Source: the human T2T-CHM13v2.0 reference genome, Homo sapiens. From it: 64,000 nucleotides of DNA. The stretch is taken from assembly GCF_009914755.1 (NCBI RefSeq), contig NC_060926.1; one strand, given 5' to 3'. The position numbers and the translations under genes are program-made. This document shows, in pieces, positions 47,744 through 57,326 of this stretch. The notes beneath the pieces were generated by a model. It ran no database searches. It was not told the origin of the DNA and saw only the letters and a list, made by a program, of their open reading frames with translations. Each line of letters starts with the position of its first letter. Positions within the stretch are counted from its first letter, which is position 1.

Positions 47744-47802
47744 TTATAAGAATCTCACCTGACAGATGAACAGGTTAAGATTTGATAGAATTACCTATAA
47801 GG

Positions 47803-48099
47803 TTTTTTGTTGTTGTTTTTGAGGCAGAGTCTCACTCTGTCACTACCCAGGCTGGAGTGTTGTGGTACAATCTCACTGCAACCTCCGCCTACTGGGTTCA
47901 AGTGATTCTCCTGTCTCAGATTCCTGAGTAGCTCGGATTACAGGTGGGTACCACCAGGCCCAGTTAATTTTTGCATTTTTAATAGAGACAAGGTCTGTCC
48001 ATGTTGGCCAGGCTGTTCTCGAACTCCTGGTCTCAAATGATCCCCTGCCTTTGTCTCCCAAAGTGCTGAGATTACAGGTGTGAGGCACCACCCCCAGCC
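47803..48099 (-). mobile_element. AluS-like
   Basis: Alu sequence; TSD tataaggttt. Confidence 0.9.
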
Positions 48100-48348
48100 T
48101 ATAAGGTTTCGTTTTTTAAAAATTAAGGCTGACATTAATAGAAGACTAATGTAAGGGTGGAATTTGGCTTTCTCTCTCTTAAACAAGATTTTCACGTAAT
48201 ATAATTAAAGGATAATGAAAGACTTTTGTTTGTCTTGCAAATAAGCTACTGAAAAAAAAAGGAAGGGAGATACAAGAGACAGACTGTTTGGAAACCTAAG
48301 TCTTCCCTCTAAATGAGTAAAGGTTTTTGCTTTTTAAAAAAATTTTTG

Positions 48349-51167
48349 GGCTGACTCTCTTTTTGGACTCAGCTCGCCTGCACCCAGGTGATTAAAAAGC
48401 TTTATTGCTCACACAAAGCCTGTTTGGTGGTCTCTTCACATGGACGTGAGTGAAATTTGGTGCCATGACTCAGATCGGGGGACCTCCCTTGGGAGATCAA
48501 TCCCCTGTCCTCCTGCTCTTTGTTCTGTGAGAAAGATCCACCTACGACCTCTGGTCCCCAGACCAACTAGCCCAAGGAACATCTCACCAATTTTAAATCC
48601 AGTAAGTGGCCTCTTTTTACTCTCTTCTACAACCTCTCTCACTATCCCTCAACCTCTTTCTCCTTTAAATCTTGGCGTCACACTTCAGTCTCTCCCTTCT
48701 CTTAATTTCAGTTCCTTTCCTTTTCTGGTAGAGATGAAGGAGACACGTTTTATCCGTGGACCCAAAACTCCGGCGCCAGTCAAGGACTGGGGAAGACAGT
48801 CTTCTCTTGGTGTTTAATCACGCGGAGACGCCTGCCTGATTATTCACCTAAGTTTCAGAGGTGTCTGACCATGCAGGGACGCCTGCCTTGGTCCGTCACC
48901 CTTAGCAGCAAGTACCGCTTTTCTGGGGGGCAAGAACCCCCCAACCCCTTCTCTCCGTGTCTCTACCCCTTCTCCACTTTTCTGGCGGGCAAGAACCCCC
49001 CAACCCCTTCTCCTTCACCCTTAGCAGCAAGTACCACTTTTCTAGGGGGCAAGAACCCCTCAACCCCTTCTCCTTCACTCTTAGTGGCAAGTACTGCTTT
49101 TCTAGGGGGCAGGAACCCCCCGACCCCTTCTCTCTGTCTTTACCCCTTCTCTGCTTTTCTGGGGGTCAAGAACCCCCCACCCCTTCTCTCCGTGTCTCTA
49201 CTCTCTCTTTTCTCTGGGCTTGCCTCCTTCACTATGGGCAAGCTTCCACCCTCCATTCCCCCTTCTTCTCCCTTAGCCTGTGTTCTTAAAAACCTAAAAC
49301 CTCTTCAACAAACACCTGACCTAAAACCTAAATGCCTTATTTCCTTCTGCAATGCCACTTGACCCAATACAAACTCAACAGTGGTTCCAAATAGCGAGAA
49401 AATAGCACTTTCAATTTTTCCATCCTATGAGATCTAAATAATTCTTGCCGTAAAATAGGCAAACGGTCTGAGGTGCCTGACGTCCAGGCATTCTTTTACA
49501 CGTCGGTCCCTCCCTAGTTTCTGTTCCCAATGCAACTTGTCCCAAATCTTCCTTCTTTCTCTCCCGCCTGTCCCCTTAGTCCCAACCCCAAGCATCGCTG
49601 AGTCTTTCTAATATTCCTTTTCTACAGACCCATCTGACCTCTCCCCTCCTCGCCAGGCTGAGCTAGGTCCCAATTCTTCCTCAGCCTCTGCTCCTCCACC
49701 CTATTATCCTTTTTATCACCTCCCCTCCTCACACCAGGTCCGGCTCACAGTTTCGTTCTGAGACTAGCCCTCCCCCACCTGCCCAGCAATTTCCTCTTAA
49801 AAAGGTGGCTGGAGCTAAAGGCACAATCAAGGTTAATGCTCCTTTTTCTTTATCCCAAATTAGAGAGCATTTAGGCTCTTTTTCAACAGATATAAGAACC
49901 CAGCCCAGTTCATGGCTCATTTAGCAGCAACCCTGAGACGCTTTACAGCCCTAGACCCTAAAAGGTCAAAAGGACGTCTTATTCTCAATATACATTTTAT
50001 TATCCAATCTGCTCCCGACATTAAATAAAACTCCAAAAATTAAATTCCAGCCCTCAAACCCCACAACAGGACTTAATTAACCTCGCCTTCAAGGTGTACA
50101 ATAATAGAGTAGAGGCAGCCAAGTAGCAACATATTTCTGAGTTGCAATTCCTTGCCTCCACTGTGAGACAAACCCCAGCCACATCTCCACACACAAAAAC
50201 TTCCAAATGCCTAAACCACAGTGGCCAGGCATTCCTTCAGGCCCGCCTCCCCCAGAAGCTTGCTACAAGTGCCAGAAATCTGGCCACCAGGCCAAGGAAT
50301 GCCCACAGCCCAGAATTCCTCCTAAGCTGCGTCCAATCTGTGCAGGACCCCACTGAAAATCGGACAGTTCAACTCACCTGGCAGCCACTCGCAGAGCCCC
50401 TGGCTCTCTGACTGACTCCTTCCCAGATCTTCTCGGCTTAGTGGCTGAAGACTGACACTGCCCGATCACCTTGGAAGCCCCCTAGACCATCACAGACGCC
50501 GAGTTTCAGGTAACTCTCACAGTGAAAGGAGAAATTTGAACTAAGATGGAAAGGCTCATGGCAGGCCCTCAGAACCTAGATCAGGGATGGACCTTTTCTG
50601 CTGTCCAGAGTCTCCTGTTGTTGTTCTTCAGATCACCAGACTGGACCCTTTGGATACTGACAGCAGCTCAGCTTGGGCCCAGCACTATTCACAATGGCAA
50701 GGACTTGGAACCAACCCAAATGCCCATCAATTATAGACTAGGTAAAGAAAATGTGGCACATATACATCATGGAATACTATGCAGCCATAATAAAGGATGA
50801 GTTCATGTCCTTTGCAGGGACATGGATGAAACTGGAAACCATCATTCTCAGCAAAGTAACACAAGAAGAGAAAACCAAACACCGCATGTTCTCACTCATA
50901 AGTGGGATTTGAACAATGAGAATACATGGACACAGGGAGGGGAACATCACACACTGAGGCCTGTTGAGGGGTGGAGGGCTTGGGGAGGGATAGCATTAGG
51001 AGAAATACCTAATGCAAATGACGAATTGATGGGTGCAGCAAACCAACATGGGACATGTACACGTATGTAACAAACCTGCATGTTGTGCCTATGTACCCCA
51101 GAACTTAAAGTATAATAATAAAAAAAGAATGGATCGTATGATTAAAGAAATAAAGATATATAACATT
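48349..51167 (+). pseudogene. Processed retrocopy of a HERV-H-initiated spliced chimeric transcript (LTR7 R-U5/leader/gag + 154-nt unique segment + L1 3' end + flank)
   Basis: No U3; His PBS 48458-48475; CCHC CYKCQKSGHQAKEC at 50261-50302; junctions at 50528 and 50682; AATAAA 51149-51154; TSD aaaattttt?g on both sides. Confidence 0.8.
50683..51126 (+). mobile_element. L1PA 3' end (within the retrocopy)
   Basis: End of ORF2 and 3' UTR through gaacttaaagtataataataaaaaaa. Confidence 0.95.
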
Positions 51168-52890
51168 AAAATTTTGAGCCATCATTTTAGGTAAATAAAT
51201 GATTTATGATAACCTGGAATTCTATTTCATAATATCAAGTGTTCTAAATCTTTAACATATTTGATAGGCTTCCCAAAATCAAACTTCAACTTCAAAATTC
51301 TCTTTCCTGACTCCCAACTTTTAGCTGCTACAGAGGGCCCCTGAAGCACCCAAAAGAGAAATAAACAGGATTATCTGACATGTTTAGTTACACAGCATTG
51401 TCAAAATAAAAATTATGTTTAACTTCTTCAGGTTATATTTTAGTATATCATATTAAAATATGTTCCAAAATTGTATTGGATTTCTAAAATTCTAATGTTT
51501 GAGTATATGCTATCAATCATAATTAGAGTTACTATGTTAAGTTATTATAAACCACAATAATAACCAAATTTCTTTGTTAATCCTGTTTTTGACTGTAACT
51601 ACCCTGGACATTTTGTTATTCAGAGACAACTATTGTCTTGTTTTGATCCTTTTCAAAAGATGGTTTATAATCAGCTATAGGACTTTGACACGTGCTCTTA
51701 AATAAAGGTTTCTGATAACTTGGGAGATTGTGACATTGGAATAGAGGAAAACAATATAGGATTCATGAAGAGCTGAATTGCAGAATAAGAGTTAACAAAA
51801 TGGACTGAACTAATAGAAAACTGAAGTAATCCTTTTTAATTTTTTGCTTAAAATGTTGCTGAACCTTTTGTTTTTCAAAGCCAGGAAAACTTTTATTTTC
51901 AGCTATTTACAACTTTTAACAATTGAGTAAGGTATACTCCTGCAAACAAAATTTGGAGCATATTTGTTTCTCTCTGCCTGGTTTCTCCAAAATTTGGAAG
52001 CTAGATGCAAATATTCTTAACTTATAGCAATATAATGTTCTGCATAAGCGCAATAAGAATCCATTTTCTTTTGCAACAAGATGCAATTGGAGAAACTGGT
52101 TCTTTTACCAAGGCTTTTACTAAAAGGGTGTGGTTCCCTCTAGGGAATCAAGCTTGACTTGCAGAGGCAATAAAGCTTGCAAGTTTTCCCTCAGGAAAGC
52201 TTGCCTCATGCCTTGTCTACACAATCTCCATACAGGTTTGGTGAGTTAGAAATGTCACTTTCTAACAGGGCTAGGAGCCCCAAGTCATCTTGGGCCCTCA
52301 AGAAGAGAGAAATGTACCCAATTCATAGGTATTTAAGAGTACAAACCCATGGCTGGGCTGGGCTTTAAAAAGTGTCAACTGAGCTTCCTTAGAGAACAGG
52401 GTTTCATCAGAGCCAATTTTTAAAAGCCTATGTGAAAATAATTATTCTTGCTGCACTTTATGCAAATAATCAGGCCAAGTATGAAACTAAACTCAGTTTT
52501 GCAAACAATTCAGTCCTATCATGATTTGTTTTAACAAAAATGAGGACTGGAGAGAGAGCAATTATGTTTCAAAACTTATACACTTGTCATTCTATTCTAG
52601 TCTCATTATTAGTAGTTTTTAAGTTTTTGTCTGCATTTTAGACTAACCCTGCTTATTCCTGTGAACTAACCAGTGATCTCTGGCTGCAGTTCAGAAGAGA
52701 AAAAAGGGATGGGTAATGTAAAAATCTGAAACAATTTTTAAGTTCTGGGCAATCATTCTGCAAGTCCTGCCAGGTGACAGGAGTAAATAGGGTGTCTATA
52801 ACCCAGCAGTTTCGTTTTTGGGAAAATAAGACCAAAGGAGCTAACCAAAGCTAAGCCCATGCACTCAAATCTTAGCAGGCATAACCATAG

Positions 52891-54600: not shown

Positions 54601-55012
54601 TGTCAGGCCTCTGAGCCCAAGCTAAGCCATCATATCCCCTGTGACCTGCAAGTACACATCCAGATGGCCGGTTCCTGCCTTAACTGATGACATTCCACCA
54701 CAAAAGAAGTGAAAATGGCCTGTTCCTGCCTTAACTGATGACATTGTCTTGTGAAATTCCTTCTCCTGGCTCATCCTGGCTCAAAAGCTCCCCCAATGAG
54801 TACCCTGTGAACCCCACTCCTGCCAATCAGAGAACAACCCCCCTTTGACTATAATTTTACTTTACCTACCCAAATCTTATAAAATGGCCCCATCCTTATA
54901 TCCCTTTGCTGACTCTCCTTTCGGACTTAGCCCGCCTGCACCCAGGTGATTAAAAGCTTTATTGCTCACACAAAGCCTGTTTGGTGGTCTCTTCACACAG
55001 ATGTGAGTGAAA
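54601..55012 (+). mobile_element. LTR7 (HERV-H) solo LTR
   Basis: tgtcaggcctctgagcccaagc start, TATAAAA 54878-54884, ATTAAA, ...tgagtgaaa end. Confidence 0.93.
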
Positions 55013-55103
55013 ACCATTGCACCTCTGAAAGGATTAACAAAATAAAATAAGTATTTGGTTATTCTGCCCCTCCTTAGTTGGTTTACCCAATGAGCTTCTC
55101 CCT

Positions 55104-57326
55104 TGTAAACCAAAAATAAAATTCGGCTGGGGCAGTGGCTCAGGCCTGTAATCCCACCACTTTGGGAGGCGAGGTGGGCAAATCATCTGAGGTCAGTAGT
55201 TCAAGACCAGCCTGACCAACAGGGTGAAACCCCATCTCTACTAAAATTACAAAAATTAGCCAGGTGTGGTGGCACATACTTGTAATCACAGCTACTCGGG
55301 AGGCTGAGGTTGGAGAATCACTTCAACCCAAGAGGCGGAGGTTGCAGTGAGCTGAGATCATGCCACTACACGTCAGCCTGGGCAACAGAGTGAGACTCTG
55401 TCTCAAAAAATATATATATTCTAAACCCTCCAACCAACTGAATGGACCCCTCCTTTTGGCCAAGAGCATTCCAAAGTTAACCTGAGAAACTAGTTCAGGC
55501 CATGATGGGAAGGCGGGGTCAGACATGTCTCATTATTCTGTCCTCCCTTCTGGAATTTAGGTACAGCTGACCAGCATTAACATTAACATAGAGATTTTAC
55601 ATCTGACAAAACAGACTGTTTGTAGCCTAAGATACCAACATGACAAGGAGCAGGTTCTGCAAGAAACTAAAGATTTTATCCCAAAATATATTTCTTGACA
55701 TATTTTGAAATGGCCCTGCAAAGCTGTCTCTTGTGGGGAAAATCTACATTCTACAGAGAATCCTCTTCCCTTTCCAAGTACTTTCCCTGATTCAGAAGGG
55801 AATTAACTAACTCTGGCACCTTTTTAAAGTCTGATAAGAAACAGTTACAAGGTTGGGCACAGTGGCTCACGTCTGTAATCCCAGAACTTTGGGAGGCCGA
55901 GGACTCCCAAACTCTGTAAAATATTTGAAGAGATTTATTCCGAGCCAAATATGAGTGACCATGGCCCCGTGACACAGCTCTCAGGAGGTCCTCAGAACAT
56001 GTGCCCAAGGTGATTGGGGCACAGTTTGGTTTTATACATTTTAGGGAGGCATGAGACATCAATCAAATACATTTAAGAAATACATTGGTTTAGTCCTGAA
56101 AGGTAGGACAATTCAAAGTTGGGGCTTCCAGGCTATAGGTAAATTTAAACATTTTCTGATTTACAATTGGTTGAGTTTATCTAAAGACCTGAGATCACAG
56201 AAAGGAAATGTTCAGGTTAAGATAAAGGATTGTGGAGACCAAGGTTCTTTTGAAGTTTTATTGTGGCTGCCCTCAGAGACAACAGATGACAAACGTTTCC
56301 TATTCAGATCTTTAAAAGGTGCTAGACTTTAAGTTAATCTTTTTAGGATTGGGAGGGCCTGGAAGTAAAAGATCTAGCTATGTTAATAGAGATTCTTTAC
56401 TGATGCAAATTTTCCCCCACAAAAGACAGATTTGCAGGGCCATTTCAAGATATGGCAAAAAAACATGTTTTGGGATAAAATATTTTGCTTTTCTTCCTTG
56501 TCATGTAATGTTATTCCAGAGTCAGGGTGAAAAGTAAGTCTCGATATATAGGGTTAAATAAAACCCATCTGATGAGAATTTATGGTTTGTAGGGCATGAC
56601 TCCCCAGAACTCTTAGATAGGAATTTGGGCAAGATAAAAAAATCAGAATTTACTCCTCAGTAGCAACACATGACAGATAGCAGGTCCTGAAATAAACTGA
56701 AGTGTTTTACTACAAAACATATTTTTTTGACATATTTTGAACTAGCCCTGCAAAGCTATTTCTTCTGGGGAAAATCTATATTCTGTAGAGGATCCCCTTC
56801 CCTTTCCAGGTTTTTCCTTTTAAGGTCTGACACCTTTTTAGGTCTGATAAGAGACATTTACTATCTGTTCTCTCTGAAGCCTGCTATGTGGGACCTTTAT
56901 CTGTGTAATAAGAATCTTGGTCTCCACAACCCCTTGTCTTAATCCAGACACTCCTTTCAATTGATCCTAGGTCTTGAGATAGTAACTTAACTCTTTCAAC
57001 CAATTGCCAGTCAGAAAATCTTTGACTCTCCCTATAACCTGGAAGCCCCCTCCTGCCACAAGTTTCCCAATCCCCCTATATTACGTCTTAAAGTTGTCCT
57101 GCCTTTTCAGACCAAAGCAGTGTACGCTTTACATGTACTGAGTGATGTCTGCCTGCAACTTCTGTTCCCCTAAAACTGTACACAATCAAGCTATGACCCG
57201 ACCACCTTGGGCACATGTTTTCAGGACCTCTTGGGACTGTGCCTCAGGCCTTGGTCACTCACATTTGGCTCGGAATAAATCTCTTAAAATATTTTACAGA
57301 GTTTGAGTCTTTTTTTTAAATCAACA
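55104..57326 (+). mobile_element. MER4 LTR cluster (+ strand pieces with an inverted MER4A-like copy at ~55902-56660)
   Basis: tgtaaaccaaaaataaaattc start; duplicated internal segment; inverted 3' end. Confidence 0.75.
55125..55410 (+). mobile_element. AluS-like inside MER4
   Basis: Alu sequence. Confidence 0.9.

What the first reader, a model, noticed from the sequence alone, without database searches (positions are those of the whole stretch)
48349..51167. Fossil cDNA of a spliced HERV-H/unique-exon/L1 chimeric RNA
Seen: the HERV-H sequence begins at GCTGACTC with no U3. In the solo LTR7 in this window the same G (54908) lies 30 nt after TATAAAA, i.e. at the expected TSS. One extra G precedes it, possibly cap-derived. 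HERV-H then stops at CAGTGAAAG (50528), where the consensus as I recall it continues GTAAGT, a splice donor. A 154-nt non-viral segment follows, ending CCCAG and joined to L1 at CACTATTCAC, which in L1 follows a ttattgcag acceptor-like site. After the L1 tail come 41 nt of extra sequence with AATAAA. The unit is bounded by aaaatttttg / aaaattttg, and the host MER4-group sequence resumes. Inference: a full-length, multi-exon LTR7-driven lncRNA from another locus was retrotransposed by L1 in the germline or early embryo, preserving an ancestral HERV-H chimeric transcript.
Basis: partly seen in the sequence, partly recalled or inferred. Interest (0 to 1): 0.85.

Follow-up and report, generated by a model that had tools for sequence, protein, structure and literature searches.

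The report
Retrocopy of a spliced HERV-H chimeric RNA
This 2.8-kb stretch is an intron-less DNA copy, pasted in by the L1 machinery, of an ancient four-exon RNA that started in a HERV-H retrovirus promoter and was spliced onto three exons of a chromosome 3 locus, so it preserves a snapshot of a transcript made in the primate germline or early embryo millions of years ago.

Summary
Window 48349-51167 is one L1-type insertion into an older repeat. Intact copies of that repeat give an empty site ...CTTTTT|AAAATTTTTG|AG....

The insert has four exons:
- Exon 1 is HERV-H from the first base of LTR7 R to a family-wide AG|GTAAGT donor.
- Exons 2 and 3 are 51 and 103 nt.
- Exon 4 is 485 nt. It starts inside an L1 fragment and runs 41 nt past it to a poly(A) site.

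Exons 2-4 map in order to one chromosome 3 locus. Introns of 3.7 and 1.4 kb are removed there at canonical GT...AG borders. Divergence from the source is 25 of 638 bases.

Three things do not fit neatly:
- No HERV-H or LTR7 lies within 121 kb upstream of the chromosome 3 exons, and no extant copy is close enough to be the source provirus.
- The exon 2 acceptor reads GG, not AG, on chromosome 3 in this assembly.
- The poly(A) tail is almost absent.

The element shows no sign of present function. It is a rare, informative fossil of a known mechanism.

The parts
48339..48348 (+). 5' target-site duplication AAAATTTTTG. It is preceded by three more A and by CTTTTT, an L1 endonuclease-type site TTTTT/AAAA.
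   Evidence: Four of 5 intact copies of the flanking repeat run from the left flank straight into the right flank, with one copy of this motif.
48349..48349 (+). One untemplated G between the TSD and the first base of LTR7 R. It is most simply a reverse-transcribed cap (inference).
   Evidence: It is not in the empty site, where A follows the TSD. It is not in LTR7: 37 of 39 other LTR7 matches start at query base 2-3, and T or C precedes GCTGACTC in loci L058-L061.
48350..50528 (+). Exon 1, 2179 nt. It is collinear HERV-H: R (about 48350-48412), U5, primer-binding region, leader with about 60-nt tandem repeats (48892-49208) and degenerate gag. It ends at the gag-region 5' splice site ...GTGAAAG|. 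There is no U3. A leader 5'ss-like site CCA|GT at 48601|48602 was not used.
   Evidence: Collinear full-length alignments to other copies at 82-88% and 90-92% by segment. Tandem repeats, donor, leader site.
50529..50579 (+). Exon 2, 51 nt, equal to chr3:116,926,220-116,926,270. At the source it is followed by GTGAGT and preceded by ...ccctgtgg (GG where AG is expected).
   Evidence: (51 of 51 identical).
50580..50682 (+). Exon 3, 103 nt, equal to chr3:116,930,007-116,930,109. At the source it is flanked by ...ctcAG| and |GTAACC.
   Evidence: 101 of 103 identical.
50683..51167 (+). Exon 4 (terminal), 485 nt, equal to chr3:116,931,546-116,932,033. It starts at ttattgCAG| inside a 5'-truncated L1 3' fragment. 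The L1-derived part is 50683-51126. It then runs 41 nt past the L1 A-run (51127-51167), with AATAAA at 51149-51154 and the end 13-14 nt later.
   Evidence: 461 matches, 23 mismatches, 5 gap columns. In one search, other L1 copies align across the acceptor at the source, where the fragment spans about chr3:116,931,353-116,931,998.
51168..51176 (+). 3' target-site duplication AAAATTTTG, one T fewer than the 5' copy. Its A-run absorbs whatever remains of the poly(A) tail.

Best explanation
The unit is an L1-mediated processed retrocopy of a capped, spliced, polyadenylated four-exon RNA.

Steps and their status:
1. Transcription began at the first base of R of an LTR7 promoter of a HERV-H provirus (inferred).
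2. It ran 2.18 kb through U5, leader and gag (shown by collinearity).
3. It was spliced from the strong gag-region donor AG|GTAAGT to three exons now at chr3:116.926-116.932 Mb. The last two junctions are shown at GT-AG resolution. The first is shown on the donor side only.
4. The terminal exon begins at a 3' splice site inside an old L1 fragment. It ends at an AATAAA-directed cleavage site 41 nt beyond that fragment (shown by colinearity with the source).
5. L1 ORF2p nicked a TTTTT/AAAA site inside an older repeat between ITGA6 and PDK1 and reverse-transcribed the RNA to its very 5' end, adding one G opposite the cap. A roughly 10-nt target-site duplication was created. The TSD and target are shown. 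The enzyme and the cap origin are inferred from established L1 biology.

Dating: 25 differences in 638 bases against the source (K2P 0.040) put the event very roughly 8-29 million years ago. This uses recalled hominoid neutral rates of 1.0-1.5e-9 per site per year.

Function: the copy has no U3 promoter and no annotated function, so it is a fossil.

Source provirus: the driving provirus was most likely upstream of the chr3 exons in cis. It has since been lost or lies more than 121 kb away. I put this sub-claim at about 0.6.
For: - Source locus: the non-viral parts have exactly one other genomic home, in order and on one strand. Two introns are removed there at canonical GT...AG borders.
- L1 piece: at the source it is part of a longer L1 fragment that continues upstream of the acceptor, and the 41-nt tail is contiguous with it. 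So the L1 piece is exon sequence, not an insertion of its own.
- Donor: HERV-H stops at the base before GTAAGT in the family. That is 21 of 29 copies exact and 26 of 29 with GT in the alignment, with 900 motif matches against 0 control.
- Single insertion: 4 of 5 intact copies of the flanking repeat join the left and right flank with one copy of AAAATTTTTG, preceded by T-run/A-run.
- 5' end: it lies 30 nt after TATAAAA in the window's own solo LTR7. An independent R-only copy elsewhere (L062) begins at the same GCTGACTC after non-LTR sequence and ends in A18.
- 3' end: it falls 13-14 nt after AATAAA, where the match to the source stops.
- Literature: HERVH's strong splice site and LTR7-initiated chimeric transcripts are established (PMC12228294, abstract and section 16 read). 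L1 fragments exonized as terminal exons are established (PMC10901741, passages read).
Against: - No HERV-H or LTR7 in chr3:116,805,001-116,955,000, that is 121 kb upstream of exon 2 plus 23 kb downstream of exon 4.
- No plus-strand chr3 copy between 90.2 and 116.9 Mb in four partial motif listings. These cover only part of the family and would miss solo LTRs.
- No extant HERV-H copy approaches the 95-100% identity seen for exons 2-4. The best is 88% over the full length, and 90-92% by segment with one 137-nt partial match at 92.7%. The five copies nearest by donor-region variants are 83-90%. Only 40 first-look candidates are scored per search, so a closer copy could have been missed.
- The intron end before exon 2 on chr3 reads GG, not AG. 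The first junction is therefore canonical only on the donor side, unless one A>G change or a polymorphism occurred at the source.
- After the cleavage site there are only four A, shared with the TSD, so a poly(A) tail is not visible. The two TSD copies differ by one T and by the length of the A-run.
- Divergence is uneven: 2 of 154 in exons 2-3 against 23 of 484 in exon 4.
Confidence: 0.9

Rival explanations
1. The retrocopy is the same, but the HERV-H exon was never linked in cis to the chr3 exons. It was joined by trans-splicing between a HERV-H transcript from another chromosome and the chr3 pre-RNA.
For: No HERV-H or LTR7 within 121 kb upstream on chr3. None on the plus strand for 26 Mb in partial listings. 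The HERV-H end is still exactly at a donor, as trans-splicing would also require.
Against: Trans-splicing is rare in mammals. Loss of a provirus, or a first intron longer than 121 kb, is an ordinary alternative. The listings cover only part of the family and would miss solo LTRs. No candidate donor provirus elsewhere is close either (83-92%).
Confidence: 0.06
2. It is a chimeric retrogene made by L1 reverse-transcriptase template switching. The cDNA synthesis on the spliced chr3 RNA reached its 5' end and jumped to a HERV-H RNA.
For: The exon 2 boundary on chr3 lacks an AG, so exon 2's first base could in principle be an RNA 5' end rather than an acceptor. A G sits at the junction.
Against: The HERV-H part would have to end by chance at the base before the family's GTAAGT donor, within a 2.2-kb stretch. 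The template-switch chimeras that I recall, which I did not check in a paper here, carry the complete 3' end of the 5' partner RNA, and a HERV-H RNA ending at a 5' splice site is only a transient splicing intermediate. The other two junctions are plain splicing.
Confidence: 0.03
3. It is a patchwork at the DNA level. A truncated HERV-H provirus, an unrelated 154-nt host stretch and an independently inserted 5'-truncated L1 (perhaps with a 3' transduction) happen to lie side by side.
For: This is the default reading of a repeat annotation. The L1 tail followed by 41 nt with AATAAA resembles a 3' transduction.
Against: The 154 nt and the L1 piece plus tail come from one chr3 locus with introns removed at GT-AG. 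The L1 piece begins exactly at the source's acceptor, inside a fragment only about 640 nt long that lacks the L1 5' end and so its promoter. The whole 2.8 kb interrupts one older repeat at a single point with one TSD. No TSD flanks the L1 piece alone.
Confidence: 0.01

Closest known systems
L1-mediated processed pseudogenes / retrocopies of spliced Pol II transcripts
   Same: It is an intron-less copy of a multi-exon source on another chromosome. It ends at the cleavage site after AATAAA. It has a roughly 10-nt TSD at a TTTTT/AAAA target.
   Different: The parent is not a protein-coding mRNA. It is an ERV-initiated, apparently non-coding chimeric RNA: the longest frame is 84 aa and runs out of frame into L1. 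The poly(A) tail is virtually gone. The promoter-bearing first exon can no longer be found at the parent locus.
HERV-W processed pseudogenes (Pavlicek et al. 2002, reference seen in PMC6298018 and the paper itself not held; Grandi et al. 2016, PMC5016936, and Grandi & Tramontano 2017, PMC5537654, abstracts and passages read)
   Same: It is an ERV RNA starting at R, without U3 at the 5' end, mobilised by L1 with L1-type TSDs.
   Different: Those are copies of the viral genomic RNA, R-U5...U3-R-poly(A). Here only the 5' 2.18 kb of HERV-H is present, and it is spliced to host exons. The 3' end is a host poly(A) site. PMC5537654's abstract calls HERV-W the sole HERV group specifically mobilised by L1.
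LTR7/HERV-H-driven chimeric transcripts (the PLA2L and CALB1 fusions as listed in PMC9343867; HERVH chimeric lncRNAs as reviewed in PMC12228294)
   Same: It has an LTR7 start, HERV-H internal sequence as first exon, and a viral splice donor joined to downstream host exons.
   Different: It is known here only as a DNA fossil, not as RNA. The driving provirus is not detectable near the host exons in this assembly.
L1 chimeric retrogenes by template switching, and L1 3' transductions (both recalled, not checked in a paper here)
   Same: A composite insert bounded by one TSD. L1 3' sequence followed by non-L1 flank and a downstream poly(A) signal.
   Different: All three internal junctions sit at splice sites of the parents. 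The L1 piece starts at an acceptor inside a promoter-less fragment.

Membership tests
L1-mediated processed retrocopy | Collinear with the exons of a source locus whose introns, with GT...AG borders, are missing from the copy | tested here: met
   Two introns (3.7 and 1.4 kb) are removed at CTAG|GTGAGT...CTCAG| and CCCAG|GTAACC...TTGCAG|. The first junction is met on the donor side only. The chr3 acceptor reads GG.
L1-mediated processed retrocopy | Target-site duplication of about 7-20 bp at an L1 endonuclease-type site (TTTT/AA) | tested here: met
   AAAATTTTTG / AAAATTTTG, preceded by CTTTTT. Four of 5 intact copies of the flanking repeat have this motif once, where the two flanks meet. The two copies differ by one T.
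L1-mediated processed retrocopy | 3' end at a polyadenylation site, followed by a poly(A) tail | tested here: inconclusive
   The end is 13-14 nt after AATAAA, exactly where the source match stops. Only four A follow, and they are shared with the TSD.
L1-mediated processed retrocopy | Absence from the orthologous site in lineages that split before the insertion | not testable with these tools
   No primate genomes are held. Only a family-level empty site could be built.
HERV processed pseudogene of the HERV-W type | 5' end at R (no U3) and 3' end U3-R followed by poly(A) | tested here: not met
   The 5' end at R is met. The 3' end is a chr3 host exon, not U3-R. Five other loci with an LTR7-type R end plus A-tail exist elsewhere.
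LTR7/HERV-H-driven chimeric transcript | RNA starts at the LTR7 transcription start site | tested here: met
   The start is 30 nt after the TATAAAA of the window's solo LTR7. An R-only copy, L062, starts at the same base. An untemplated G precedes it. There is no experimental TSS map, so the start is inferred from position.
LTR7/HERV-H-driven chimeric transcript | HERV-H internal splice donor joined to host exons | tested here: met
   HERV-H ends at AG|, where 21 of 29 copies read GTAAGT. The next base begins the chr3 exon.
LTR7/HERV-H-driven chimeric transcript | Driving provirus upstream of the host exons on the same strand | tested here: not met
   None in the 121 kb upstream. None on the plus strand of chr3 between 90.2 and 116.9 Mb in partial listings. 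Greater distance or later loss is not excluded.
Template-switch chimeric retrogene | Junction at an arbitrary point of the 3' partner and at the natural 3' end of the 5' partner RNA | tested here: not met
   The 5' partner ends at a 5' splice site, not at an RNA 3' end. The other junctions are exon-exon joins.
L1 3' transduction | A transcribing L1 (full-length, or at least promoter-bearing) reads through into its 3' flank | tested here: not met
   The source L1 is a 5'-truncated fragment of about 640 nt. The copy begins at a splice acceptor about 190 nt inside it.

The most novel reading that the evidence does not exclude
The HERV-H exon and the chr3 exons were never on one chromosome, and the fossil records a trans-spliced RNA made in the ancestral germline or early embryo. 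Short of that, there is a likelier bold reading, at about 0.5. In it the retrocopy is the only surviving record of an LTR7-promoted gene structure. Its provirus has since been lost from chr3 and its first acceptor has decayed from AG to GG. The retrocopy would then give base-level proof that the LTR7 start site and the gag-region donor were in use in hominoid germline or embryonic cells roughly 8-29 million years ago.
Probability: 0.06. Interest if true: 0.75.

Novelty: new member of a known kind. Interest (0 to 1): 0.45.

Why it matters
Retrocopies can only be made from RNAs present in the germline or early embryo. This one is therefore a dated, base-resolved record of three things at once in ancestral primates: an LTR7 promoter, the HERV-H gag-region splice donor, and an L1-embedded terminal exon.

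It also shows that L1 can mobilise HERV-H-containing RNA. A review abstract (PMC5537654) credits HERV-W alone with specific mobilisation by L1. The five LTR7-R-plus-A-tail loci found in passing suggest this is not a single accident.

Because the promoter provirus is no longer found at the parent locus, the copy may preserve a gene structure that has since been dismantled. Practically, it warns that HERV-H internal sequence without LTRs, lying beside an L1 piece, need not be a decayed provirus.

It has no visible present-day function.

Tried and rejected
- Locating the source provirus failed by every route tried:
  - a BLAST scan of chr3:116,805,001-116,955,000 with the HERV-H part, the window's solo LTR7 and a further HERV-H locus gave no hit;
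  - genome searches with 632 nt, 2180 nt and 114 nt of the HERV-H part gave no stand-out copy, and only 40 candidates are scored each time;
  - four copies share the rare GAAAG donor variant, and the three that matched were 83-90%;
  - position listings by motif showed no plus-strand chr3 copy upstream;
  - the nearest lineage-like copy, on chr4, was 84-90%.
- A screen for other junctions at the same donor gave 53 hits. Four candidates were fetched and none is a second spliced retrocopy. The filter would by design catch fewer than half of such junctions.
- Pavlicek et al. 2002 is not held, so I could not check whether it mentions HERV-H pseudogenes.
- Literature searches returned no paper in their listings that describes a retrocopy of a HERV-H chimeric transcript. 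Only listings and a few passages were read.
- I considered a protein search with the 84-aa frame and dropped it, because the frame runs out of frame into L1.
- Naming the chr3 source gene was not possible, because no annotation for that region is available here.
Full report
**Observation**

- HERV-H begins at GCTGACTC (48350) with no U3.
- In the solo LTR7 of the same window, TATAAAA lies at 54878-54884 and the homologous G at 54908, 30 nt from the first T.
- One extra G (48349) precedes the HERV-H start.
- HERV-H ends at ...CAGTGAAAG (50528).
- Then come 154 non-viral nt, an L1 3' end from CACTATTCAC (50683) to an A-run ending at 51126, and 41 further nt with AATAAA (51149-51154).
- The flanks read AAAATTTTTG (48339-48348) and AAAATTTTG (51168-51176).

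**Source of the non-viral parts**

A search of the window's own assembly with the 154 nt found, besides itself, only two places. Both are on chromosome 3, 3.7 kb apart. BLAST of the whole unit against fetched chr3 sequence showed three collinear blocks on the same strand:

| Window | chr3 | Identity |
|---|---|---|
| 50529-50579 | 116,926,220-116,926,270 | 51 of 51 |
| 50580-50682 | 116,930,007-116,930,109 | 101 of 103 |
| 50683-51167 | 116,931,546-116,932,033 | 461 matches, 23 mismatches, 5 gap columns |

So the '154-nt segment' is two exons. The L1 piece with its 41-nt tail is a third exon, contiguous at the source.

At base level the source reads CTAG|GTGAGT ... CTCAG|ATCAGG around the first intron. 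It reads CCCAG|GTAACC ... TTATTGCAG|CATTATT around the second. The window joins exactly at these bars.

The source match stops 13-14 nt after AATAAA. At that point chr3 continues with unrelated sequence and the window continues with the A-run of the duplication.

At the source the L1 homology spans about 116,931,353-116,931,998. Other L1 copies align straight across the acceptor at 116,931,545|6. The window's L1 piece is therefore exon sequence, not an L1 insertion or a 3' transduction.

**The HERV-H end**

In 29 other HERV-H copies the sequence aligned to window 50499-50528 continues with a 5' splice site. It is exactly GTAAGT in 21 of the 29, and 5 more keep GT. The 27-nt motif spanning this donor has 900 matches in the genome at up to 2 mismatches, against 0 for the reversed control.

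The HERV-H part is collinear with other copies from base 2-3 to base 2176-2180 of the 2180-nt query. So exon 1 is an unspliced 2.18-kb 5' portion of the provirus.

A leader site CCA|GT at 48601|48602 corresponds to the family's CCG|GTAAGC. It is present but was not used.

HERVH's strong splice site and its use in chimeric transcripts are described in PMC12228294 (abstract and section 16 read). Earlier examples (PLA2L, CALB1) are listed in PMC9343867 (passages read).

**One insertion, L1-type**

The right flank belongs to an older interspersed repeat. One search gave 909 first-look candidates, and the 39 others scored were 82-86% identical.

I fetched five intact copies. In 4 of the 5 the window's left flank aligns up to the point where the right flank begins, with a short overlap. 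The fifth matched only the right flank.

At base level these four copies read ...GGTTT.TGCCTTTTT AAAATTTTTG AGTCATCATTTTGG... or close variants. From this I conclude:
- 48349-51167 entered as one piece;
- the target was a T-run/A-run of the kind L1 endonuclease prefers (recalled from the L1 literature);
- about 10 nt were duplicated;
- the G at 48349 came neither from the target (A follows there) nor from LTR7.

On the last point, 37 of 39 other LTR7 matches start at query base 2 or 3. T or C precedes GCTGACTC in loci L058-L061. A cap-derived G is the simplest reading (inference).

**The 5' end as a start site**

Besides the TATA distance, a side search gave independent support. I searched for the LTR7 R end followed directly by ten or more A (16 overlapping matches at 5 distinct loci, control 0).
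- Three loci have LTR7-like U3-R plus an A-tail.
- One has R plus an A-tail behind a different upstream sequence.
- One (L062, chr11) is an R-only copy. It begins at the same GCTGACTC directly after non-LTR sequence and ends GCTCAC plus A18.

This fits an RNA running from that G to the LTR7 poly(A) site, and it puts R at about 62 nt (54908 to about 54969).

**Age**

Against its source the retrocopy differs at 25 of 638 aligned bases (15 transitions, 10 transversions; K2P 0.040).

With recalled hominoid neutral rates of 1.0-1.5e-9 per site per year and the Poisson range of the count, this gives very roughly 8-29 million years, centred near 16.

The differences are uneven: 2 of 154 in exons 2-3 and 23 of 484 in exon 4.

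**What does not fit**

*No driving provirus was found.*
- BLAST with the HERV-H part, the window's solo LTR7 and another HERV-H locus found nothing in chr3:116,855,001-116,955,000 or in chr3:116,805,001-116,855,000. That is 121 kb upstream of exon 2.
- Motif listings by position show no plus-strand copy on chr3 between 90.2 and 116.9 Mb. These are zero-mismatch rows; 320 hits; 148 hits; 51 hits, all listed. Together they cover only part of the family and would not see solo LTRs.
- No extant copy is close. The best is 88% over 2180 nt. By segment the best are 90-92%, plus one 137-nt partial match at 92.7%.
- The copies sharing donor-region variants are 83-90%.
- Each DNA search scores only 40 candidates, so this is not exhaustive.

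*The exon 2 acceptor.* If the donor is AAG|GT, the intron on chr3 ends ...ttatccctgtGG in this assembly. One A>G change at position -2, or a polymorphism, would account for it. I could not test that.

*The poly(A) tail.* Only four A follow the cleavage site, and they double as the start of the TSD. The two TSD copies also differ by one T and in the length of the A-run.

**Rivals**

- A DNA-level patchwork is contradicted by the chr3 mapping and by the single empty site.
- Template switching by L1 reverse transcriptase could explain the missing AG. It would require the HERV-H RNA to end by chance at the base before its strongest donor.
- Trans-splicing would explain the missing provirus. It is intrinsically rare, while loss of a provirus or a long first intron is ordinary.

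I put the retrocopy of a spliced chimeric RNA at 0.9. Within that, I put cis origin from a chr3 provirus, since lost or lying further away, at about 0.6.

**Is it unique?**

I screened for HERV-H sequence running to this donor and then departing from GTAAGT at positions +2, +5 and +6. It gave 53 hits, with 3 in the reversed control.
- Most hits are an unrelated repeat or ordinary copies with a mutated donor.
- Of four candidates fetched, none is a second case.
- One of them (L064, chr4) remains unexplained.
- The screen would catch fewer than half of such junctions.

**Function and novelty**

The copy lacks U3. Its longest frame over exons 2-4 is 84 aa and runs out of frame into L1. It lies in an intron of PDK1-AS1 on the opposite strand. 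It overlaps none of the RefSeq functional elements in the hub's table. I see no present function.

The mechanism is textbook L1 retrocopying. The template is unusual. The abstract of PMC5537654 calls HERV-W the sole HERV group specifically mobilised by L1. My five literature searches returned no paper in their listings that describes a retrocopy of a HERV-H chimeric transcript. I read only listings and a few passages. Pavlicek et al. 2002 is not held.

I file it as a new member of a known kind, of moderate interest as a dated molecular fossil.

Noticed in passing
L058 (chr1:37,078,753+), L059 (chr1:186,257,433+), L060 (chr11:16,986,725+), L061 (chr5:127,183,986-), L062 (chr11:5,691,070-): At five loci an LTR7-type R end (…AAGCTTTATTGCTCA) is followed directly by an A-tail. 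Three have LTR7-like U3-R, as expected for 3' ends of L1-type retrocopies of RNAs ending in LTR7. L062 is R-only: it starts at the same GCTGACTC as the window unit, after non-LTR sequence. This suggests HERV-H-related RNAs were mobilised by L1 more than once.
   Followed up: partly
L064 283|284 (chr4:95,354,682|3, plus strand): A HERV-H copy runs to the same gag-region donor (…GTGGAGG) and then continues with sequence absent from my partial HERV-H references. Only a 148-nt stretch matches another HERV-H locus. It could be an internal deletion or a provirus copied from a spliced HERV-H RNA.
   Followed up: partly
L065 306|307 (chr12:101,107,755|6, plus strand): What looks like the 5' end of a full-length L1 follows about 15 nt after the same HERV-H donor position. 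I identified it from recalled L1 5' UTR sequence, not from a tool.
   Followed up: no
window 54601-~55013: A solo LTR7, used here as comparator, with TATAAAA at 54878-54884 and R from 54908. It lies just before a RefSeq enhancer element (55083-55825) and an Alu. Its boundaries were read by eye and from BLAST ends, not from a repeat annotation.
   Followed up: partly
window 47796-48093: An antisense Alu flanked by CCTATAAGGTTT on both sides lies about 250 nt upstream of the unit, inside the same older repeat.
   Followed up: no
window 48892-49208: There are four to five tandem units of about 60 nt in the HERV-H leader. The full-length alignments to other copies are shorter or are broken in or just after this region, so the block probably varies in length between copies.
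   Followed up: no
L006 5544-5870 (chr3:116,930,544-116,930,870): A high-copy repeat lies in the second intron of the chr3 source locus, with up to 79 matches among the sequences held. It is probably an Alu. It is absent from the retrocopy, as expected for intron sequence.
   Followed up: no
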